Shown here: positions 15,837 to 49,695 of the stretch, piece after piece
Numbering within the stretch: the first letter of the stretch is position 1
Layout of the letters: every line of letters begins with the position of its first letter
From: Sphaeroforma arctica JP610
Lineage: Eukaryota
DNA length: 51,132 bases
Assembly (NCBI RefSeq): GCF_001186125.1
Contig: NW_014040211.1
Coordinates: forward strand, 1 to 51,132
Direction: 5' to 3'
The notes under the pieces: model-generated
What the model saw: the letters and a program-made list of their open reading frames with translations, nothing else
Told to the model about the DNA's origin: nothing
The model's database searches: none
Made by a program: the position numbers and the translations under genes

Positions 15837-26969
<11,133 letters not shown>

Positions 26970-28703
26970 GGGTGACGGTCTGAGATTTTTAGAATGAGCA
27001 TAGTCGAAGGAGAAGGTGCGCATGACTCGGATCTTCCTGGAGATTGCATATGGGGGGGGCAGGTGCGATATAAAGCATTAGACACCCCTGGCCGTATCAT
27101 AGAGTTGCTGGCAACTCGGGGATTGACGAAGGGTACTATCTGGTGTTATCAACAGATGCTACGATGATAAGTACATCTGCTACAAATATTTCCGTGAAAT
27201 AGCTTAACCCTACTACACCGAATAGATGAAGCCTACGACACCTTAGCTTATCACCACTGATTCGTGTGTAGTGTGAAGTACGATAGCATGATCGAGTGTG
27301 TGGGCTCATACGTGAGGATTCAGTAAGAGCTCTGTACGGAATGGTCCCGTTTAACGTTCCACTACATATCCAAAAGCCTACTATCAGTATGACCAAGGCA
27401 TCCCGCACAAGGGCCAGGACAGGGCACCCATAGGCCAGGACAGGACACCCATAGCGTACATCAGCAATATAACTGGCAAGACACAGCCGGCCAGAAATCT
27501 GAACAAGATTCGAATTAAAGATAGATAATTGATGATTGTCTAAGCTAGGTCAGTCTGGACATTCTGGCCAATATGGTCACAACTAAGTGATGCTAAAACA
27601 TAGAAGGTAAATATATGTGTTGCATCTTTAGATATTTTTTACAATAGGACTCATGGTTGCCTTATAAATGTAGTAGGTATGACAAGGTTTCATCTGCAAA
27701 CTACAAATCGTATGAGCTTCATCTTTGCTCTCTTTATTGTTCACTAGCGGTGTCGGCAATAAAATAACCGTTTGAGGTTCCAGTGTGGGCCCGCCTATAA
27801 ATAAAAAGAACATCGCATACTCTGTAGACCACGGCATTACTATATCAGATTGGTCGGATATGAAAGATAAATAGTTGAGCAAAAGACGGATATATAGGTT
27901 TCAAATATATATTATTTTTAGCCATGGTGCGATCGATAAAGTACGGATATCACCCCCAAGAGTTTACAACCTTCTCTAGATGAGAAGGCAAAGTTAGGCT
28001 GAACAGCTCCCTCGAAGAGACAGGGCTGTCATTCAAATCTCAAGAACGACAGACCTCCGAGTCAGATAAAAACGCTTATACGCGAGAGGATCTATTATTG
28101 TATATAAAAGAGTTCCAGCAGAGCAGAGTCTACTGAGTATTTACACATCTACTGAGTAGCTACACACATCAGTAATAATACGGTTCTTTGTTTCAATGTT
28201 TTTGAGACCTGAATGATATGTAAGTCCCCCTTTCCACATGTGCGAGAGAGAATTAAATTCGGCATTTGGCAATCCTTCACTGCACTGAATGCAGTGATTC
28301 TACTGCAGTGACTGCACTGCGTAAATATGTCTGCTGTACATCCCCCATTATACAAATATGTATAAATACATTTATTTATTTATGTATTTATTTTTACTTG
28401 CAGTATGATACAGTAACAGTGTGTATGGTACTTTTTGTAATAAATTTTTATTTTTAAAAAGAACACATAATTTTCTGTTGAAATAAATGAGTAACAATGG
28501 CATGGCAACGTACTCGACAGCCAGGTCCCATCACTCATACTCATCTCAGAGATTTTCATACTCGCAGGTATGCAGGCTATAGAATCATGAAAAAATACAT
28601 GAATGAATGACTGAATCAGAAGCTTAGCATATCAACGTGTACTGTGTGTCCAGGACACGTTCGATAATCACCACATCATAGTAACTATTATCTGATCTTC
28701 AAT

Positions 28704-37002: not shown

Positions 37003-38695
37003 TGTTATGAAAAATTCTAGCAAACTTTGAAACTAGAGCGCAATGAAATGGACCGTTGAATAACAATATTTATTCGAGTTTAATCCTCAGCTGTAAACCC
37101 AAAACGAGACCAGATCCTGAAAATATACATTACGAAAAGGTGAGAACAAAATCTGGTCTGGTTCTGGGTTCTTCCAATCCCTATTAGATATGAGAGTGAA
37201 ATTTCCGGGCCGCAACTTTGCGAGCCGGGTTCGCTAATGCGACCGGTGTACTTGGACTCGACACCTGTCCTAACTCACTTATGAACAGGTCCGTTTCATC
37301 TCGCTCTCAAATTAAAGTAGGATGGGGTAGGCTAATTCTAGAGTCGACGACGTTTACTTCCATAGCAACGACACTTTGTTGAAGTAGGGCTGGCTGGGGG
37401 ATTGCTACCCTTCTGAGTTTTGAACGCCTTGAAAGCGGTTCAAACATGACCTCGGCGTCGAAGCCTTAGCAGCATAGCCAGTGCCATTAGTGAAAGCCTT
37501 GAAACCTCAATACAACCATCTGAAGATGAAGAACATTGATCCCACCGTCTGCGAGTACCGACTCACGACAATGACATAAAATGTTAAAAATAACAGCTGT
37601 TTTGAAGAAGAAGAAAAATAGGAGTACTTTACTTCTTTAACATTCGGGTACCACTTCCGGGAAGAGGGGTGTATCACCCCGCTCCCCGGATGTAGTACTT
37701 TTATACGAGAATGCTTGGCATTTTTCGCATGTAAGGACGTATATCATGCTCATAATATTCATCTTTATTTCTTTGTACATTATATGTTACAAGCGTGGAC
37801 CAGCTATAACCCCTCATTTACATCTTCACGAGGAAGATGGCCGATGATAGACTAGACGATCGAGAACAGAACGGCGGCAATTCGATCCTTTTAGAGATTG
37901 GACGAGCAAGACAAACTCGTCGAGAAATCAAGGCGACCGGATATTGTTCCAGGCTCCGAAGAAGCCAGCGTATATCAGCTAGAATAACCGTTAGGTGACG
38001 TCTCCTCAGACAGTCATCTTCGCCAAACTTTGCGAGCCGGGTTCGCTAATGCGACCGGTGTACTTGGACTCGACACCTGTCCTAACTCACTTATGAACAG
38101 GTCCGTTTCATCTCGCTCTCAAATTAAAGTAGGATGGGGTAGGCTAATTCTAGAGTCGACGACGTTTACTTCCATAGCAACGACACTTTGTTGAAGTAGG
38201 GCTGGCTGGGGGATTGCTACCCTTCTGAGTTTTGAACGCCTTGAAAGCGGTTCAAACATGACCTCGGCGTCGAAGCCTTAGCAGCATAGCCAGTGCCATT
38301 AGTGAAAGCCTTGAAACCTCAATACAACCATCTGAAGATGAAGAACATTGATCCCACCGTCTGCGGCTGTCTTATTGCATCTCTATAAGCTCTGTCGTTA
38401 TTTTAGCATCAGCTGGTAGGTCGAACTGTCAAGCATCAAGTCAACATGGTAAACATTCAAATGGCTCGCAAGTGAGTCCAAGGCTATTCACATCCGCACC
38501 AAGTAAATCCAGCGGCGACAATAACAAGTCCAGGGATGTAGTCTCAACGCGCCCGATGTGACTCATGGCACGATGTCTGTCGGCAACGAAATTTTGGTCG
38601 TAAGATGAAACAGATTGGTTGTTCTCAACACAGGCTATATCAGCGGTAGTAGCCATCACATCTGGATCCGATGAGAGACAATCATACTTCCGGCG
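37003..38695 (+). repeat. Left arm of a long inverted repeat, with an internal 340-bp direct duplication (37214-37553 = 38026-38365)
   Basis: 37023-37553 and 38026-38695 match the reverse complement of 48787-49656 closely. Both arms begin TGT(A/T)...ATGAAAAAT. Confidence 0.9.
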
Positions 38696-38698
38696 TCA

Positions 38699-40988
38699 AT
38701 GGGTGTCACACAGTCATCTGCAAAGGCAGCATACATTAGTGATAAGACTCGCTCACAAAAGGCATATACACCTGAAGTATTCAAGCACTTGCAGGAAGCA
38801 AACAAGAATGAACACGAATTGGCATTGTCCAAAGCATATCTTCCTCCCCCGCCGCCGAAATCCGTTCCAAGACCCCCCAACGATCCTAAGAAAACGGATG
38901 TGGATCTCTAGCCACTGTACTTATCTGTTCGATCCGAGGCAAAAACATGGAGAAAGCACCAGGCCAGCAAACGGCTACTACAGAATATCAAGTATGGGGT
39001 TCGACCCACATGGAACGAATTAGGACCTCCAGCGAAGAATCTGACAGGCTCATGGATATCGAACCCGGAAGTAACGGATTTGATGAGCCAGACCGAACTA
39101 ACCAGGTTAGCATCGCAAGGGGTAATTCGGAAATATCCCGAATCAGAGGCTTACTTGATTCATCGCGCCTTCATGGTCCTGAAATCCGACGGCATTCGCG
39201 CCCGCCTGATTCTCGACCCCAAATCTATCAACTTGCACGCAGAGAAGTCTAGATTCCGAGCCGAAGGATTGGACAAGCTTCATCAAGTAGCTCGTCGGAA
39301 GGATCTGGCGATGAGTACAGACTTTCAAAACGGTATTTACGCACTCGCCGTCGCCGAACCCAAACTACGGCGGTTCCGAGATCACTTGGGACAGCTTTGG
39401 TGCTTCATGGCACTGCCAATGGGGTATATGAATTCCCCACATTGCTTCAACAAATTGATGAATGTATTTCGTCGGATCTGCCACAAACGACACATAAGAA
39501 TAAATGAAGTTGCGATGTTGTACTATTCTGCTTCTGGGCTCCAGGCGCAGAATAGTAAAACATCGCAACTTCATTCAGCTAGTCGTGGACTCCCTTGGAC
39601 TGCAGCTAGCGAAGGCAAGGGTCATTGGCTGACGCCAGTGACTCGGTTGATCTACCTTGGGTTAATTATCGACCTCCGCGCGAACACGCTCGAACTGACC
39701 CCTGTTTTCAAAGATAAAATGAACTCCCATACAGCGGCAATAGTCAGCAATGCATTACGCAACCAACGCCAAATACGAACCAAATTGTGGCAATCCTACC
39801 TCGAATGTCTTCATTGGGCGAGTTTCGCAATTTTGAATCTGAGACCCTTTCTAGCCGATCTACAGCGATCCACGGATTGGAGCAAATGAACTAAGCTCCG
39901 ACTCTCTGGAGCGTAATTGAGTAAACTAGAAGAAAAAAAATACTCTTCTGGTGGAGCTCTTCCATCCCCGATCAATATGGTTACCACAAGCCAATACGGA
40001 TTTGACCTCGGATGCCAGCAAAATAGAGTATGAAGCAAAAATTCACTTCAACAACAAGACCCACACATTTTCCGGGTAATGGAGTCCTCGCGAAGTACTC
40101 AGGCCAATTTCAGTTTTGGAACTGAAAGCACTAGTGCTAGGCTTAGAATACTTCCACACCCATCAATTGATCACCAGCCGGACGCACCTTCTGATGCTAA
40201 CCGACTCCAGCACGGCCTTTCATGCCTTGAGAAAGCGCCGGAGTCAATCTAAGTTGATGAATGCACAGTTACGATGACTCACATGGTACTGCCACAACCA
40301 GCAGATTCACTGGCCAGTGGCCTTGGGCTACCTTCCAGGGAAATTATTGTGGGCATGCGACGACCTTTCGAGAGTGGTGGTCTGTTGCGTTATCATTAGA
40401 CCGCCCGTGCCACTACACTACACACATCAGCTTTACCTCCGATGGGCAGTAGCCCTACCCCCCTCCAAGCGCACGTACGATGCCGGACACGTATTACCTG
40501 GACTTAGCGTTTCAAGTTCACCTTCATACGTTGCTCCCTTTCCAACCCAAATGGAAACAGAACGTTCCGCTGATCGCCGCGCCGGATGCTCTCCTGGGAG
40601 AAGTACTGTTGAAAGTCGATGCTCAATTACAACCGGCAGTGCTGATAGTTCCCTATTGGACACGGGCAATATGGTGGGCGAATATACTTCATCACATGGT
40701 GGATTACGCTTTACTTCCGCTTGGATCCGTCCACTATCCAGTCGACGTTCAACATGTCCTAGGGCGAAGCCTGCCTCCATCACTGTTTTACGACCCTTCG
40801 CACGGAAGCGATTTGTTGTGCCCTCCGTTAGACGTGAACCGAATCGTGACCTCCCCCGGGTGGTACCAAGAGCACGCGCGAAACGAGTGACCATCCGACA
40901 GAGCATGTCTGCGGATGCTATTACTCAATCTATTCTGGATGGTGGACTCGAGCCCAATACGAAAACCAGCTATGCGCGCGCTATGTGA
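38699..40988 (+). mobile_element. Decayed DIRS-type (tyrosine recombinase) retrotransposon: gag-like, RT, RNase H, MT-like domain, start of YR
   Basis: RT: AFMVLKSDG.RARLILDPKSIN...DFQNGIY...FMALPMGYMNSPHCF...YLGLIIDL, with YxDD not intact. RNase H at about 40080-40372: ISVLELKALVLGL..F...LTDSSTA..ALRK...YLPGK....DDLSR. MT-like: LLGEVLLKV....AVLIVPYW.RAIWW. YR N-terminus: SILDGGLEPNTKTSYARAM, cut at about 40990. There are several in-frame stops. Confidence 0.85.
39080..39889 (+). pseudogene. DIRS-type reverse transcriptase, degenerate
   Basis: RT motifs RLILD, LPMG..NSP and YLGL are present. The YxDD region is disrupted and the frame ends prematurely. Confidence 0.85.
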
Positions 40989-41026
40989 TATGTAATAAGC
41001 CGGGCCTCCACATTAGACTCTATGTT

Positions 41027-41212
41027 ATAAACGTACTCTTAAGCAGTACGTAAATTATAAACGTACTCTTAATAGTACGAGGAACTTAAGTTTCATAAAT
41101 GTACTCTTAATAGTACGAGAAACTTAAGTTTCCTAACTGTACTCTTAATAGTACGAGGAACTTAAGTTTCCTAAATGTACTTTTAATAGCACGAGGAACT
41201 TAAGTTTCCTAA
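41027..41212. repeat. ~39-bp tandem repeat built from two palindromes
   Basis: The unit is gtactcttaatagtac plus gaggaacttaagtttcct, in about 4-5 copies. Confidence 0.9.
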
Positions 41213-43757
41213 AATGGCTTTTAATGGTTTTATTAATTAATACCTTTTCCATTTTACATATCCGATATTTGGACGAGGCCATTAAAAGGCCTCAGTAAAA
41301 TACCAAGCATAAGAGTTGGTCTAGTTCTATTAATTGAACTATATTTACTTTCCAACTTTATTTATATCTGAATACTTCGGTAGCGAGATGGCTCAACCGA
41401 ATATAGGTTTCTAGGGACTATCAACGTTACCTAGTTGATCCTCCGATCAGCCAACCAGATGTGCCATTCTGATGAAGGCTAAGTCGGTAATTCTTGATAA
41501 GTGGCATGTTATTGCTTAAGATAATAACTAAGGACATCAAGAGTATTATTTTATTTTTTTCTTCTAAAGATAGGACTTTATGAGTCTCTCGGATTCGCCC
41601 CAATGAAACATACCATAGTTTCTAATAGAGCGACAACGAAACACTAAATAAAATTCCTTCGGCGGAAACAGTACTGAGAGGATTATATATAGGCAATGTC
41701 TCAGCCTCACAATCCCTCACAGTATTGCTGTTTTCACGAGGCATACCTAATTTTACTAAATGTCTTATTTCGTTCATCTACTTTGATATTTTCGCGATAC
41801 TTAGAATTTACCTACGTGTTTATTTATTCTAAGGCGTTAATATCGCCTTGAGAGACCGAATCTTACACATTTTAAAGTTAGCAAAGGTATTAACTACTTA
41901 GACTACTTAAACGTAAAGGTAGAAAACTACAACAATTTTTTCTTGTCCAAGCTAGTCCTTAAGAGACCAGCTAGCAGTCAGAATTTAAGATTATGACCAA
42001 GAAAGACAATACTTCTTCTAAGAAGCGTAGAGCTGAAAATAACATTTAACGCGACCGCAGAAGAGGACAATCAATCCGTAACCGAAATCATTGCTACTGG
42101 TATTAATAACCAGAAAAATACAACAGAGAAGGGTGAAGACACCACATTAAGAGAGATGTCCCCTGAAGTAAAAGCCCGCGGGCCAACTATTGCGTCTGCT
42201 TCGAAGCTTACGTTTACGAAGCCAAGAAGTCACGCAAAAGGATCGATTAAGACGATCCCTACTAAACCTGATGAGAACACTCAGAAGGATCTAACTCCAA
42301 TTACGGAGAAAGGAGACAACCCGCTTAAGGGAGAGGATGAGAAGGAAAGCTCAGAGAGCCGACCCGAATCAGAATCAAACCAGCCATCGCACATATGTAA
42401 GTTGATCGATGAGAACACTGAACTTAAGAATTAGTTAGCCACTCTTAAGAAGCGAATGACCTCGCAGGAAAAGGCGGTGGTTAAGAAACCGCGGGAGCAG
42501 ACCGATCAAGGGTACGTATCCCAGGCAGACCTCAAACGAGAGACCCCAATATACACGTCCACGTGAATCTACTCAATTTACACGCCCTGTTAAGAAGGTG
42601 CGTGCGGAGCACAAGGAACCTGCATACAAGCAAGTTAAGAAATGTGCTGATGAGAAATGTGGTTATAACATGTACCAGGTAACACCTAACGGCTACTGGA
42701 ACGGAAAGCATGCCCAATCTTGTAAACACTATCTTACAAAATGCGATAAATATGAGAAGACCAATGGCTACCACACTAAATCGTGTAACGTCAGACCCGA
42801 CATTAAGCTGGACTGACGATACTACCGGGTACAATCGTTACACAGACAGTACAACGACTCTTTAGATGAGCGTGTCATAATCCCTGTATATTGCAATGGA
42901 AATAAAATCCTTGCGTTGATTGATCCTGGTTCAGATATTTTATGTATATCCGATCGCTTTGCATTAATGAAAGATATCGAAAGGAGAACACAAACAACTC
43001 ACCTCATTTTAGCTGATGATAAAACTGCTAAGTGTGATACCATGGCCACAGATATTAAAATCTCCCTGGCCGATGATAGGAATATCACTACCCAAGCTGT
43101 GATAGTTAAGATGTCACANNNNNNNNNNNNNNNNNNNNNNNNNNNNNNNNNNNNNNNNNNNNNNNNNNNNNNNNNNNNNNNNNNNNNNNNNNNNNNNNNN
43201 NNNNNNNNNNNNNNNNNNNNNNNNNNNNNNNNNNNNNNNNNNNNNNNNNNNNNNNNNNNNNNNNNNNNNNNNNNNNNNNNNNNNNNNNNNNNNNNNNNNN
43301 NNNNNNNNNNNNNNNNNNNNNNNNNNNNNNNNNNNNNNNNNNNNNNNNNNNNNNNNNNNNNNNNNNNNNNNNNNNNNNNNNNNNNNNNNNNNNNNNNNNN
43401 NNNNNNNNNNNNNNNNNNNNNNNNNNNNNNNNNNNNNNNNNNNNNNNNNNNNNNNNNNNNNNNNNNNNNNNNNNNNNNNNNNNNNNNNNNNNNNNNNNNN
43501 NNNNNNNNNNNNNNNNNNNNNNNNNNNNNNNNNNNNNNNNNNNNNNNNNNNNNNNNNNNNNNNNNNNNNNNNNNNNNNNNNNNNNNNNNNNNNNNNNNNN
43601 NNNNNNNNNNNNNNNNNNNNNNNNNNNNNNNNNNNNNNNNNNNNNNNNNNNNNNNNNNNNNNNNNNNNNNNNNNNNNNNNNNNNNNNNNNNNNNNNNNNN
43701 NNNNNNNNNNNNNNNNNNNNNNNNNNNNNNNNNNNNNNNNNNNNNNNNNNNNNNNNA

Positions 43758-44026
43758 GGTGGTTTGAACTGGCTCAAAAGATATTTGGGCCACATACAGT
43801 TGACATGTTTGCTGCACATCATAATTCACAACTTAAGAATTACAGGACCTAAATCATCCTGTAGGAGATGCCTTGCAACTAGACCTCTCCAAACATAATG
43901 CGTGGGCAAATCCACCATGGCAGTTAATTGCTGAATTACTAAAATATGTTCATATACACAAAGCTACCATCACGGTGTGTTGCCCAATACGGAGTAAAGA
44001 TTCATGGCTCAATAAATTAATAAGCT
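43758..44026 (+). pseudogene. DIRS/Dam-type N6-adenine DNA methyltransferase domain fragment (copy 1)
   Basis: It reads RWFELAQKIFGPHTVDMFAAHHNSQLKNYRT, then a 1-nt frameshift near 43850, then DLSKHNAWANPPWQLIAELLKYV...ATITVCCP...SWLNKLIS. It is truncated at about 44026. Confidence 0.8.
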
Positions 44027-44663
44027 TAAGGTGGTACGGCCAATCATCTGCATCATCCGTTAATGTAGTACGCAAGAAGAACTTAAGTCTTCTATGGCGC
44101 GTTTCATTCGCGCCTTGCGTTTGCGGCTTATATGGCACACTTCTCTTATGGCATATGCCTGATACGAGTACTAGCGATTCCATTATGTCATCGCGGAACT
44201 CACTACCGTTATCAGTGCACATATTACCCGGCCACCCGTGGTCAGCAAAGACTTGGCAACATAATTCTGCCACGGTCTGCATATTCTTATCCTTCAATGG
44301 ATAGAGCAAGTTATACCGTGACGCCACATCAAAAAAGTGGCATACGTAACGGTCGCCTATGTGCTTGGACGTAGGCAGGTCAACCAGATCAATGATGACC
44401 CTGCGCCATGGAACATTTTCAGTCACACTCTTAAGCGGTTCCAACCAATAGCGCTTGATCTGATTGAGATCACAGTCTGTACATGACTGATATACTTTGT
44501 CAACTAAAGTTGCCAGCTTAGGGTGCGCGAAACCATTTTGCTTAGCATCTTTAAGTGCGTCTACTACGTTCTGGTGCTTCAGCTTATGGTTTTGCGTCAG
44601 CCAAGTAAGAATGTTTTCATCATTCTGCTCTTCCAGAATAAACGTAGTGTGTCGAGAATCCAC
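44027..44663 (-). pseudogene. Retroviral-type (rve) integrase with HHCC zinc finger and DD35E core, C-terminally truncated
   Basis: Zinc finger H-KLK-H...C-TD-C. Core PWRRVIIDLVD...DVASRY...TDNGSEF...PYKPQTQGANE, with exactly 35 residues between the second D and the E. Confidence 0.93.
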
Positions 44664-44849
44664 TTGCGTGGTCTCTAAGTCTGTAGTGTTTCCAGACTCC
44701 TGTCCTTCTTTTGCGTGAGTGTCATGAGTGCACTCGTGTGCGTTTTATACACCTGACTTATTTAATAGTCGTATTATATGTGTATATGCTTCGGGATTAT
44801 CTTTCATTAATCCCTTTAAAAATAGGATTTGAAAGACTTCGGGCTTGAA

Positions 44850-45433
44850 CTATGTGTTATTAAACAGAGTCCTAGCTAGAGACTGACGCTTCTTAACTGT
44901 AGTGTCATTAGTAAATTGTATTTCTTGTGCACAGACTTCAAGTGCTGTGTTGCCTTTGAACTGCTTAACGTTCAAACTAGTGGAGAGTGGAATCTCCGAT
45001 TCTTTGACCTTGTTAAAGAAGGTCTCAGAAGGCGTCCATTTGGTTGTTCCAATGAAACCTATACGACATATTATAGTATGTCTCCAGGGCGTCTTCTGGA
45101 CGGCTCGGGTACCCTGATATTTGAAAGTATCTACTTCCCTATTTAAATATATTGGCTCGCATTGTATCATGCTTATCAATTTATTGAGCCATGGATCTTT
45201 ACTCTGTAATGGGCAACACAACGTGAAGTTAGCTTTATGTATATGAACATAATTTAATAGCTGGACAATTACCTGCCATGGTGGATTAGCCCACGCATTA
45301 TGTTTGGAGAGGTCTATTTGAAAGGCGTCTCCCAAAGGATGATTTAAAGTCCTGTATTTCGATAGTTGTGCACTATGATGTGCAGCAAACATATCTATGG
45401 TATGTGGCCCAAATATCTTTTTGAGCCAGTTCA
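44850..45433 (-). pseudogene. DIRS/Dam-type N6-adenine DNA methyltransferase domain (copy 2), in frame with the downstream integrase
   Basis: It reads FGPHTIDMFAA (SAM-binding motif I-like)...GDAFQIDLSKHNAWANPPWQVI (motif IV NPPW)...FTLCCP...PWLNKL. It shares its frame with the integrase, separated only by a TAG at 44850-44852 and a TAA at 44745-44747. Confidence 0.85.
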
Positions 45434-46378
45434 CCCGGATGGATCTGAAATTCCCTATTTGCCACCTACTTCCTATGTGACTAAACTTTCTGATCTGCTT
45501 ACCAACAGAGCAGAAAATTCTTCGAGCTTACTTACTAATGAAGAACAACCTTTGGCTATTACCTTACCAAGTAATAAACGTAAAGCGCCTACATCGGAAA
45601 TGGTTACTGGATCAAATACTAAACGACATAGAGTACAACATGAGTCTTGAACTCGTACATATAAGCACATACTTACTCGATAAGCCATGACCGAAACCGT
45701 TTTACCTTGGGTTTGCTTTACGAACTAGATCGTACCTTCACGTACGTCCGTAGTCCTAAAAGCTACTGGGGGCTATGTAGAAATACGGCCTCTGGTCAGT
45801 CTAAAATATCAAGATCAAATGAGGCAACACATTGGTTTTTATTTGTATTTAAAATAATTTAATACAAGTTCTTTTTCCAAATTTCTAAAGTGTTCTAAAT
45901 TCCCTTTGATGGCTCCAATAGCCTGAGTATTTGGTATGACTCATTTACTTGGACCTATTTGAGACGATAATAGATGTAGGATATTCTAAACTAAATTTTA
46001 TAATCTCTGAACTGTTACTTACAGGTTTTGGTCTTCCCGCCAATCTCCAAAATCCAATAAGTCTTTTTCTTTTTTTAACTTTTCTTCAGATGGAACTTTA
46101 TTTATTTTAGCTAATGTATTAACTTGACTTGCGTTCTTATGTCTATCTACAAATTAGACGTGTGGTCATGAATACTTAGTACTTCTAGTATTATTTTTTT
46201 CTCAATAAAGTACAGCTAGAGATACGTCCTGTGTAATCGAGGATATTAAGGCTCTTACCAAGAGGCAGTCCCAATCATTCTTACACAAGCTACTACTGCT
46301 AAATCCTAACTGATTTAAATTGTATCTTAATTTATATAGCATAGCTTCAAACATAAAAATATATCCATCGAAATTTAC

Positions 46379-46751
46379 ACCCATTGAAGCCTGAATCTGT
46401 CCTAAGCTTCGGTGGTCACATGTCAGTCACGTAATCCCATTGTGAATACATTTGGTTGGTACAAAATAAACGTGTAAAACTTCCTTTCACAGTATATTCT
46501 GATCAACCAAGCGGACTAGTACCAAGTTCTCGTCTCGCATTTGCCCCGTGTCTCGCAGGCCAATGCCCTTGAAGACATGAATTTGATTCCGTACACGGCT
46601 GCACCATGGGGATGACGTGTAAACCTAGGTCTATCCCAAGCTTGGGTTACCATCGTATAACCCATTGAAATCTGAATCTGTCCTAAGCTTCGGTGGTCAC
46701 TTGTCAATCACGTAATTACATTGTGCATACATTTAGTTGGTTCAAAATAAA
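46379..46751. repeat. ~90-bp direct repeat pair (46379-46471 and 46660-46751)
   Basis: The sequence cccattgaa..ctgaatctgtcctaagcttcggtggtcac...aaaataaa occurs twice. Confidence 0.85.
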
Positions 46752-46940
46752 ACTATAAAACAACGAATGTTCAACAGTTTACGAAAAATAGTCGCATAAC
46801 GGCCAATCATAACCGCTTGACAACTATTCTTACTTTCAATTCGCGTTGAGCATAGTTTCCGAATTCCAACAATGTTTTTTTTTCTCGCTTTATTTTATTT
46901 TTCTTCCGAGTGTGTTGGCAACTTTGCATTTGGCAACTTA

Positions 46941-47046
46941 GCATCATATGGTGTTGGTATCATATAGTGTTGGTATCATATAGTGTTGGTATCATATAGT
47001 ATTGGTCTCATATAGTGTTGGTATCATATAGCGTTGGCATCATATA
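46941..47046. repeat. 16-bp tandem repeat (gtgttggtatcatata)
   Basis: About 6 copies. Confidence 0.9.
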
Positions 47047-48493
47047 TCTGAATCTTCTCAAACTTCTCAGAACAGCTCGAGGTGACTCGAACTGATCTGT
47101 ACAGTACGATTTTTAATTCACAATACTTTGGTCTTTTTATCAATGGGGTGTTTCTATTTATTGATATTAAACTTTTGCTACATAGAGAAAGTAGAGGATT
47201 ATAGTAGAAAGCCAAGTTGAGAACATCATCGCACTCAGTCATATTGGGTGCGGGAGTGAGAGAGGGAGATAGTGAGGGTCTCAGAGAGAGAGAGTTGAAA
47301 GTCGCGAGCCTTATCATGAAACTTTAACTGGGGCTCTGGGCTCTGAGCTCTGAGAAGGCACATTGCTGATATGACTCATACGAGTAACGAGTATGAAGTT
47401 CTGAAATGCCTGCTGAAGCTGCAGGTTTATGTACACTGTGCTATTAGTAACTAAATCGGATTGTGTCGCTTCGTAGTATATGACCTCAAATATATACCTG
47501 GTAGTGAACATTCTGTAGCGCAAACTGTGAATACCAAAAAAAGTATGAAAATGCAATAACTTGCGACTGCGAGCTTGCGAGGTCACACCCGTCATGGCCG
47601 CCACAGTAACTAATAAGGAAACTGCAGCCTCCGCAGCTTAGGCTGTTCAGCGGGCATTTCAGCTTCGAATATGTCGTAGCAGCCTATTCAACTTTCATTA
47701 TGTCGAGACACAGCCTTCTAAATCAAGCAGTCCAGAGTCCAGACTGTCACTTTTACTGTCTTAAAATACTGCTGCTCGCCATTTTCTAATCTCACTATTT
47801 TTCTCTCGAGAGAGTGGAAGATCAGAGAGTATTCAAAAAAAAAAACAGTAGCCTAGGTGGCTACTAGGTCCCAGGTCCCCGGGCCCAGGCCAGCCCCGGA
47901 CTCAGAGTCCCATAATAGCAAAACATGTCCGCAACTTTGCTCTATGCTATTTATTATTATCTATTTACCTCTACAGTGCACAGGCTCTACTCAGTCTCTC
48001 TAGCAATAGTGATCAATGATAAATACACACCAAAGGTAAAAGACCAAAACATTGTGAATTAAAAGTTCGATATGTACAGATCAGTTCGAGTTACCTCGAG
48101 GCTCGAGCTATATATTCTGAGAAGTTTGAAACGATTCAGATAAATGATACCGACACTCCATGATACCAACACACTCGTAAGAAAAATAAAGTGAAAAAAA
48201 AAACATTGTCTGAAACTTTGCGCAAAGCGAATTGAAAGTAAGACTAATTGCCAAATGATCATGATTGGCCGTTTAGGGGATTTTTTTATTATGGGTAGAT
48301 CACTCATTTGATCACTTGATCCAGCTGTTATTCATTTTAAATTTTATGTCACAGTTGTGAGTTGGTACTGAACTACTGGTACTCGGTAGTCGGTATATAC
48401 TGATGCGCGATGACAGTCATGGCACCAGAGTCCAGAGTGACCAGACACACAAGAAAACTGGTATGTAGAGGAAAGACATACTCTCTCTAGAGT

Positions 48494-48786: not shown

Positions 48787-49695
48787 CGCCAGAAGTATGA
48801 CTGTCTCTCATCGGATCCAGATGTGATGGCTACTACCGCTGATATAGCCTGTGTTGAGAACAACCAATCTGTTTCATCTTACGACCAAAATTTCGTTGCC
48901 GACAGACATCGTGCCATGAGTCACATCGGGCGCGTTGAGACTACAGCCCGTTATTGTCGCCGCTGAATTTACTTGGTGCGGATGTGAATAGCCTTGGACT
49001 CACTTGCGAGCCATTTGGATGTTTACCATGTTGACTTGATTCTTGACAGTTCGACCTACCAGCTGAGGCTAAAATAACGACAGAGCTTATAGAGATGCAA
49101 TAAGACAGCCGCAGACGGTGAGATCAATGTTCTTCATCTTCAGATGGTTGTATTGAGGTTTCAAGGCTTTCACTAATGGCACTGGCTATGCGGCTAAGGC
49201 TTCGACGCTGAGGTTCTGTTTGAACCGCTTTCAAGGCGTTCAAAACTCAGAAGGGTAGCAATCCCCCAGCCAGCCCTACTTCAACAAAGTGTCGTTGCTA
49301 TGGAAGTAAACGTCGTCGACTCTAGAATTAGCCTACCCCATCCTACTTTAATTTGAGAGCGAGATGAAACGGACCTGTTCATAAGTGAGTTAGGACAGGT
49401 GTCGAGTCCAAGTACACCGGTCGCATTAGCGAACCCGGCGAAACAAGGGCTCGGCTCGCAAAGTTGCGGCCCGGAAATTTCACTCTCATATCTAATAGGG
49501 ATTGGAAGAACCCAGAACCAGACCAGATTTTGTTCTCACCTTTTCGTATAGTGTATTTTCAGGATCTGGTCTCGTTTTGGGTTTACAGTTGAGGATTAAA
49601 CTTGAATTAATAATGTTATTCAACGGTCCATTTCATGGCGCTCGAGTATCAAAGTTCGTTGGAACGGTTTAATAAAGAGCATTTTTCATATTACA
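48787..49695 (-). repeat. Right arm of the long inverted repeat
   Basis: It is the reverse complement of 37023-37553 and 38026-38695. ORFs 48669..48863 and 48766..48966 mirror ORFs 38619..39023 and 38441..38659. Confidence 0.9.

What the first reader, a model, noticed from the sequence alone, without database searches (positions are those of the whole stretch)
44027..45433. Gypsy-like polyprotein with an N6-adenine methyltransferase domain in frame with a DD35E integrase
Seen in sequence: the minus-strand ORFs 44850..45434 (IDMFAA...WANPPW) and 43950..44663 (HHCC plus DD35E integrase) share one frame. The 62-codon linker (FKPEVFQILFLKGLMKDNPEAYTHIIRLLNKSGV*NAHECTHDTHAKEGQESGNTTDLETTQ) is interrupted only by TAG 44850-52 and TAA 44745-47, both explicable as C>T changes from Gln codons. 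Established knowledge: this MT domain type (phage Dam-like, NPPF/NPPW) is a hallmark of DIRS tyrosine-recombinase retrotransposons, whereas DDE integrases define LTR elements. Inference: an LTR retrotransposon family captured a DIRS-type adenine MTase with an intact catalytic motif and expresses it fused upstream of integrase. It could methylate its own cDNA or target site. I do not know of this domain combination being described.
Basis: partly seen in the sequence, partly recalled or inferred. Interest (0 to 1): 0.9.

Follow-up and report, generated by a model that had tools for sequence, protein, structure and literature searches.

The report
Broken gypsy retrotransposon with adenine methylase
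This is a broken, flipped piece of a common gypsy-type jumping gene whose family really does carry an adenine-methyltransferase-like domain just before its integrase, but this kind of element was already described in a 2026 preprint, including in what is likely this organism's group.

Summary
Observation confirmed; novelty not. The minus-strand Dam-like domain (IDMFAA...NPPW) and the HHCC/D-D35-E integrase share one frame with two stops. The fusion is a family trait. Intact 1,376-1,400 aa relatives read (PR)-RT-RH-Dam-IN, and 27 of 156 fetched proteins have Dam before IN in one chain, two of them from Abeoforma whisleri. Dam and IN trees agree. Both stops are absent from 98-100% of laid contig depth in 4 runs, where the codons are Lys and Ser, not Gln. 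The 44026-45433 piece is inverted inside a patchwork of at least two decayed copies. Fernandez-Moreno et al. (bioRxiv 2026.05.21.726589) describe an 'Ichthyosporean DAM-LTR lineage' in Sphaeroforma arctica and A. whisleri; the closest named relative here is an S. arctica protein. This scan already noted the type in 23 findings from at least 3 genomes. Side points: the best structural match is the RNA cap methylase PCIF1, and chromodomain-like tails occur in the Abeoforma proteins. Enzymatic activity is unproven.

The parts
44026..45433 (-). Inverted internal Pol fragment of a Ty3/Gypsy DAM-LTR: Dam domain, linker, integrase zinc finger and core; matches residues 652-1106 of intact relative P0003
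   Evidence: tblastn 49% identity, E 4e-133; loose ends at 44025 and 45433 in other copies' contigs mark both break points
44994..45428 (-). Dam/PCIF1-like N6-adenine methyltransferase domain; IDMFAA 45398-45381, NPPW 45287-45276
   Evidence: Pfam Dam E 6e-4; own profile E 1e-49, built with this copy included; AlphaFold2 model pLDDT 93.5; best folds PCIF1 E 2e-5, Z 8.7, rmsd 3.1, 120 aligned
44850..44852 (-). In-frame TAG, rare among the laid copies
   Evidence: 98.6-100% of laid contig depth in 4 of 4 runs shows another base at 44852, giving a Lys codon
44745..44747 (-). In-frame TAA, rare among the laid copies
   Evidence: 98.3-99.3% of laid contig depth in 4 of 4 runs shows another base at 44746, giving a Ser codon
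44472..44591 (-). Integrase HHCC zinc finger
   Evidence: sequence, motif positions; aligned to P0003 and P0004
44026..44396 (-). Integrase catalytic core D-D35-E, truncated at 44026
   Evidence: Pfam rve E 4e-7; motif spacing
43757..44025 (+). Second Dam-domain copy from another family member; frameshifted near 43850, cut at 44025
   Evidence: 87% nucleotide identity over 263 nt to the minus copy; sister to it in the tree, 98/80
43119..43756 (.). Assembly gap (638 N) where RT and RNase H would lie; P0003 spacing would need about 1,620 nt
42817..43118 (+). Aspartyl protease (start of pol), directly after an in-frame TGA that ends the gag-like frame
   Evidence: Pfam Asp_protease_2 E 8e-4; 40% identity to P0003 residues 20-103
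41997..42816 (+). Broken gag-like region (TAG at 42432-34, frameshift near 42520); inferred from position, no Pfam match
40991..41867 (+). 5' LTR-like repeat with TGTAA...TTACA ends
   Evidence: termini; other copies have unrelated flanks behind 41867, agreement 0.34-0.36 in 4 runs
45434..45650 (+). C-terminal tail of the Pol polyprotein
   Evidence: 72% identity to P0003 residues 1334-1400, E 6e-22
45776..46340 (+). Second LTR-like repeat (starts TGTAG after a short G run), not similar to the 5' one; right end approximate
   Evidence: unrelated flanks before 45776 in 32 contigs of run X14, depth drop near 46336; local score 216 against a shuffled maximum of 240
38912..40988 (+). Decayed DIRS-like element (RT, RNase H-like, its own degenerate Dam-like ORF 40453-40890) that ends where the LTR begins; context, not part of the fusion
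   Evidence: Pfam RVT_1 E 0.026; Dam profile E 1.5e-6 at 40540-40704; very long branch, about 23% identity to LTR Dams; no recombinase match obtained

Best explanation
The 44026-45433 segment is a dead, inverted piece of a high-copy Ty3/Gypsy retrotransposon whose Pol has the order protease-RT-RNase H-Dam-integrase, and it likely belongs to the ichthyosporean DAM-LTR lineage described in 2026. Shown here: domain order in intact relatives, joint inheritance of Dam and integrase, a methyltransferase fold in the predicted model, purifying selection, and the decay of this copy. Inferred: in active copies the domain is made as part of Pol and so is carried into the particle with RT and integrase. 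I think it most likely (about 0.45) puts N6-methyl groups on adenines of the single-stranded or RNA/DNA-hybrid reverse-transcription intermediates. After integration the host 6mA system (AMT1) would keep those marks and help the new copy stay transcribed, which is the preprint's model. The catalytic step and substrate are untested.
For: Intact ORFs P0003 and P0004 match across Dam, linker and integrase at 49% and 44% identity, with Pfam order (PR)-RT-RH-Dam-rve. Of 156 fetched proteins, 32 have the MT domain, 27 have it before IN in one chain, and 19 of those show RT-RH-MT-IN; none shows another order. The query held both domains, so this set is enriched for such fusions. Best PDB match of the relatives' profile is Ty3 Gag-Pol, E 1e-156. 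Dam tree: window plus P0003/P0004 at 100/99, inside an 18-row clade at 99/99 with A. whisleri P0010/P0011. IN tree: sister to S. arctica P0002 (0.949), inside a 19-row clade (0.964) with 13 Dam-bearing rows. 5,213-37,146 contig records per run lie on the element in 4 runs; both stops are absent from 98-100% of laid depth. NPP[W/F/Y] is kept in 23 of 33 rows; dN/dS 0.34. [quoted passage not shown] The preprint reports more 6mA and expression on S. arctica and A. whisleri DAM-LTRs than on other LTRs.
Against: No activity is shown: the preprint's E. coli assay gave no rise in 6mA. Iyer et al. judged DIRS1 MTase domains likely inactive (PMC4738411 passage). 8 of 33 rows have an altered motif, including the closest intact relative P0003 (CPPW), and 2 lack the region. 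The window's own Dam hit is below Pfam's cut-off and PHROGs gave no hit for either window MT. The host was not identified directly: no genome is held. The preprint says the lineage lacks chromodomains, but my profile finds chromodomain-like tails in the Abeoforma proteins. The MT tree bootstrap had not fully settled.
Confidence: 0.88

Rival explanations
1. Same element, but the domain is a non-catalytic or weakly catalytic nucleic-acid-binding module kept for binding the element's RNA or for Pol localisation, as Iyer et al. proposed for DIRS1 domains.
For: Negative E. coli assay; altered catalytic motif in 8 of 33 rows including P0003; published view that DIRS1 domains are likely inactive.
Against: NPP[W/F/Y] kept in 23 of 33 rows and the motif-I Asp in 26 of 26 rows that cover it; 6mA enrichment on DAM-LTR insertions in the preprint.
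Confidence: 0.3
2. Same element, but the substrate is the element's own RNA (cap-adjacent or internal adenosine, as for PCIF1/CAPAM) rather than DNA.
For: The six Foldseek hits with E <= 0.001 are all PCIF1 chains. PCIF1 is the only chain of 48,161 at Z >= 8, while T4 Dam, M.TaqI and E. coli Dam score 6.0-6.1. Iyer et al. place DIRS MTases in the PCIF1 clade.
Against: Z 8.7 is near the level that the tool calls common, and a shared fold shows no substrate. No solved structure of a PF05869-type phage Dam appeared for comparison. The 141-residue model matches only part of PCIF1 (TM-score 0.2 by target length). The preprint derives the domain from prokaryotic DNA Dams.
Confidence: 0.2
3. The Dam-integrase junction is a one-off chimera or misassembly joining a DIRS methyltransferase to a gypsy integrase.
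For: The locus is a patchwork with an assembly gap, an inversion and a DIRS-like element 4 kb away. The best run holds only 0.64 of this copy's sampled words.
Against: 27 chains have the same fusion. Gap-free contig pieces of other copies cross the linker, for example 44695-44952 and 44754-44882. The nearby DIRS MT is about 23% identical at best and on a very long branch.
Confidence: 0.01

Closest known systems
Ichthyosporean DAM-LTR lineage (Fernandez-Moreno et al., bioRxiv 10.64898/2026.05.21.726589; whole main text read; figures and supplement not seen)
   Same: Ty3/Gypsy organisation with a Dam (PF05869) domain; reported in Pirum gemmata, A. whisleri and S. arctica. The window fragment groups with S. 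arctica P0002 and A. whisleri P0010/P0011.
   Different: This copy is broken, truncated and inverted. The preprint says the lineage lacks chromodomains; a profile built here finds chromodomain-like tails in P0011 (E 9e-15) and P0010 (E 4e-6) and only a faint trace in P0003 (E 0.058). Pfam Chromo does not detect them.
DIRS1-type tyrosine-recombinase retrotransposons with an MT domain after RNase H
   Same: Same domain family (Dam-like, NPPW/F), placed directly after RNase H in the relatives; proposed donors of the domain.
   Different: Integration is by a DDE integrase with HHCC, and there is a protease and LTR-like ends; RT/RH are Ty3-like.
PCIF1/CAPAM cap-specific adenosine N6-methyltransferase
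   Same: Best structural match of the predicted domain; grouped with DIRS MTases by Iyer et al. (PMC4738411 passages).
   Different: Cellular enzyme, 10-16% identity, much larger; the substrate of the retrotransposon domain is unknown.

Membership tests
Ty3/Gypsy LTR retrotransposon | Pol order PR-RT-RH-IN with Ty3-like RT | tested here: met
   Met in intact relatives P0003, P0011; best PDB match Ty3 Gag-Pol. In the window PR and IN are present; RT/RH fall in the N gap or are lost.
Ty3/Gypsy LTR retrotransposon | HHCC zinc finger and D-D35-E integrase | tested here: met
   Motif positions; Pfam rve E 4e-7.
Ty3/Gypsy LTR retrotransposon | Two matching LTRs and a target-site duplication | tested here: inconclusive
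   TG...CA LTR-like unit at 40991-41867 with varied flanks in other copies; the 3' LTR-like unit does not match it, as expected for a patchwork of copies; no duplication identified.
DAM-LTR (Fernandez-Moreno et al. 2026) | Dam domain (PF05869) in the Pol ORF of an integrase-type element | tested here: met
   30 of 31 aligned members match Pfam Dam at E <= 0.05, best 2e-14; 27 of 156 proteins have MT before IN.
DAM-LTR (Fernandez-Moreno et al. 2026) | Asn-Pro-Pro-aromatic catalytic motif | tested here: met
   NPPW in both window copies; 23 of 33 rows.
Ichthyosporean DAM-LTR lineage | Groups with S. arctica / A. whisleri / P. gemmata elements | tested here: met
   IN sister to S. arctica P0002 (0.949); Dam clade 99/99 holds A. 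whisleri P0010, P0011. The preprint's own alignment was not available, and the clade also holds unnamed metagenomic rows.
Ichthyosporean DAM-LTR lineage | Host is an ichthyosporean | tested here: inconclusive
   Indirect only: 81% identity to S. arctica SARC_07241 over 107 integrase residues; no host gene was searched.
Ichthyosporean DAM-LTR lineage | No chromodomain | tested here: inconclusive
   The region is missing from the window (P0003 residues 1107-1333 have no match). No Pfam Chromo in P0003, P0004, P0010, P0011, but an own profile finds a chromodomain-like tail in P0010/P0011 and a trace in P0003.
DAM-LTR (Fernandez-Moreno et al. 2026) | Raised 6mA and expression on insertions; methyltransferase activity | not testable with these tools
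   No modification data; activity not shown in the preprint either.
DIRS1-like retrotransposon | Tyrosine recombinase instead of DDE integrase; no protease | tested here: not met
   The fragment and relatives carry rve integrase and aspartyl protease.

The most novel reading that the evidence does not exclude
The retrotransposon 'Dam' is not a double-stranded-DNA methylase but a PCIF1-like enzyme that is packaged with Pol and marks the element's own RNA or RNA/DNA intermediate, which would explain the negative E. coli assay; and the ichthyosporean lineage descends from a chromovirus that is losing its chromodomain.
Probability: 0.25. Interest if true: 0.5.

Novelty: already known. Interest (0 to 1): 0.13.

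Why it matters
The element type is interesting: retrotransposons that may write the host's 'active' 6mA mark on their own copies. But it is in print as a preprint for this lineage, and this copy is dead, so it adds one more example. The small additions are the PCIF1-like fold as a pointer to single-stranded, hybrid or RNA substrates, a selection estimate on the domain, and chromodomain-like tails in a lineage reported to lack them.

Tried and rejected
Own genome: none held, so copies were studied through laid contigs and protein collections. Gln C>T origin of the stops: rejected. A ciliate-type code as the reason for the stops: not needed, since other copies lack them. Linker stop count as evidence: rejected, 20% of shuffles do as well. 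Local DIRS-like element as donor of the domain: rejected, too divergent. Matching LTR pair: none found. PHROGs: 0 of 2 window MT proteins matched. No RNA holder listed among the runs, so expression was not assessed. Earlier-findings search by sequence: nothing. The protein atlas did not answer, so the chromodomain trace rests. Tree rows dropped: P0029 and P0063 (fragments without the catalytic part) from the MT tree and alignment A1; integrase hits under 110 residues from the IN tree, leaving 150 rows. P0097, P0128 and P0154, found only by the iterated MT profile, were not in the MT tree. Literature searches.

Full report
1. Observation. The minus strand 45527->43950 reads in one frame with two internal stops, TAG 44852-50 and TAA 44747-45. 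The frame holds IDMFAA (45398-81), NPPW (45287-76), an H-x3-H/C-x2-C finger (44591-44472) and D-D35-E. Pfam gives Dam E 6e-4 and rve E 4e-7, both under their gathering scores. The few stops in the linker prove nothing alone: 20% of 2,000 shuffles have 2 or fewer.

2. Anatomy. The piece is 44026-45433 and is inverted against its neighbours. On the + strand lie an LTR-like unit with TGTAA...TTACA ends (40991-41867), a broken gag-like region, a protease (42817-43118), a 638-N gap, and a second Dam copy (43757-44025) that is 87% identical to the minus copy. After the inverted piece come the Pol tail (45434-45650, 72% identical to the end of P0003) and a second LTR-like unit from 45776 that does not resemble the first. 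Contigs of other copies run off the window at 44025 and 45433, which marks both break points. The locus is a patchwork of at least two decayed copies next to a decayed DIRS-like element (38912-40988). I could not tell whether the inversion is genomic: no genome is held, and the best run holds 0.64 of this copy's sampled words.

3. The fusion is a family trait. A word search among proteins of similar length found 1 hit, S. arctica SARC_07241, 81% identical over the integrase. The search among longer proteins found 7, of which P0003 (1,400 aa) and P0004 (1,376 aa) align across Dam, linker and integrase at 49% and 44%. Their Pfam order is (protease)-RT-RNase H-Dam-integrase. Of all 156 proteins fetched by then, 32 carry the MT domain, 27 carry it before an integrase in one chain, and 19 of those show RT-RH-MT-IN; none shows another order. 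The query contained both domains, so this is not a prevalence estimate. Two are A. whisleri proteins; cluster look-up was done for 10 of the 32. The relatives' profile matches Ty3 Gag-Pol best in the PDB (E 1e-156). In the MT tree (33 rows; two fragments dropped; bootstrap not fully settled) the window copies group with P0003/P0004 (100/99) within an 18-row clade (99/99) that holds the Abeoforma proteins. In the integrase tree (150 rows) the window is sister to the S. arctica protein (0.949) within a 19-row clade (0.964) that holds 13 Dam-bearing rows. The two domains have travelled together.

4. The stops. Four runs each lay 5,213-37,146 contig records on the 5.5-kb stretch. At 44852 and 44746, 98-100% of laid depth in 4 of 4 runs shows another base; the codons there are Lys and Ser. 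Depth is summed contig depth, not a copy count. So the stops are decay of this copy or its close kin, and the Gln C>T idea is wrong.

5. The domain. 30 of 31 aligned members match Pfam Dam at E <= 0.05, and four pass the cut-off. The AlphaFold2 model has pLDDT 93.5. Foldseek's six hits at E <= 0.001 are all PCIF1/CAPAM. VIA-align ranks PCIF1 first (Z 8.7, rmsd 3.1, 120 aligned), then rRNA adenine methylases at about 7 and T4 Dam, M.TaqI and E. coli Dam at about 6; this Z is modest. NPP[W/F/Y] is kept in 23 of 33 rows, altered in 8 (including P0003) and missing in 2. The two window copies differ with dN/dS 0.34 over 81 codons (Fisher p 0.009).

6. Mechanism. Shown: order, co-inheritance, predicted fold, selection, decay. 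Inferred: as part of Pol the domain enters the particle with RT and integrase. My preferred step (about 0.45) is N6-methylation of single-stranded or hybrid reverse-transcription intermediates, later kept by host AMT1. This is the preprint's model, and it fits the substrate ranking of PCIF1 (PMC9178792, abstract only). Rivals are a non-catalytic binding module (0.3; negative E. coli assay; Iyer et al., PMC4738411 passages) and an RNA substrate (0.2).

7. What is known. Fernandez-Moreno et al. (bioRxiv 10.64898/2026.05.21.726589, 22 May 2026; whole main text read; figures and supplement not seen) report DAM-LTRs, at least four DIRS-to-LTR transfers, and an ichthyosporean lineage in P. gemmata, A. 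whisleri and S. arctica with conventional Ty3/Gypsy organisation, raised 6mA and raised expression. PMC5890265 (cytosine MTases in retrotransposons) was seen as a search listing only. This scan's notes hold 23 findings with the same words from at least 3 genomes, 8 shown, all pointing to the same preprint; they came after my own reading and are not independent support. One difference from the preprint: a profile trained on other fetched proteins finds chromodomain-like tails in P0011 and P0010 and a trace in P0003 (E-values for a 4-sequence search), which Pfam misses.

8. Verdict. Real feature, correct architecture, already described; this copy is dead. Novelty: already known. Interest 0.13.

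Noticed in passing
window 42814-42816 (+): The gag-like frame ends in one TGA and the protease frame continues in the same frame. A divergent copy keeps a TGA at the same place (loose ends at 42786 in runs X5 and X13), so the family may make Gag-Pol by UGA read-through. That UGA followed by C is a leaky context is recalled, not tested.
   Followed up: partly
window 43757-45433: Two Dam copies (87% identical) lie as an inverted pair, and the junctions at 44025/26 and 45433/34 share about one base. P0003 residues of about 650-733 occur twice and 1107-1333 are missing. Genomic rearrangement or misassembly was not resolved.
   Followed up: partly
window 38912-40988 (+): The DAM-LTR sits directly after a decayed DIRS-like element that has its own degenerate Dam-like ORF (40453-40890), so both carriers of the domain are side by side.
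   Followed up: partly
P0011 1346-1392, P0010 800-828, P0003 1265-1311: Chromodomain-like Pol tails in A. whisleri DAM-LTR proteins and a faint trace in P0003, although the preprint says the lineage lacks chromodomains.
   Followed up: partly
window 37015-37553, 38036-38695, 48787-49664: Long inverted repeats (94-97% identity, 555-660 nt) and an exact 340-nt direct repeat (37214-37553 / 38026-38365) surround the whole nest of elements.
   Followed up: no
window about 19300-26970 (+): Exons of an MCM-family helicase gene, probably MCM6 ([21 protein letters not shown] in the ORF list); name from recalled motifs, not searched.
   Followed up: no
window 46379-46480 / 46660-46761 and 46798-47196 / 47985-48273: Further direct and inverted repeats, 75-88% identity, probably other small repetitive elements.
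   Followed up: no
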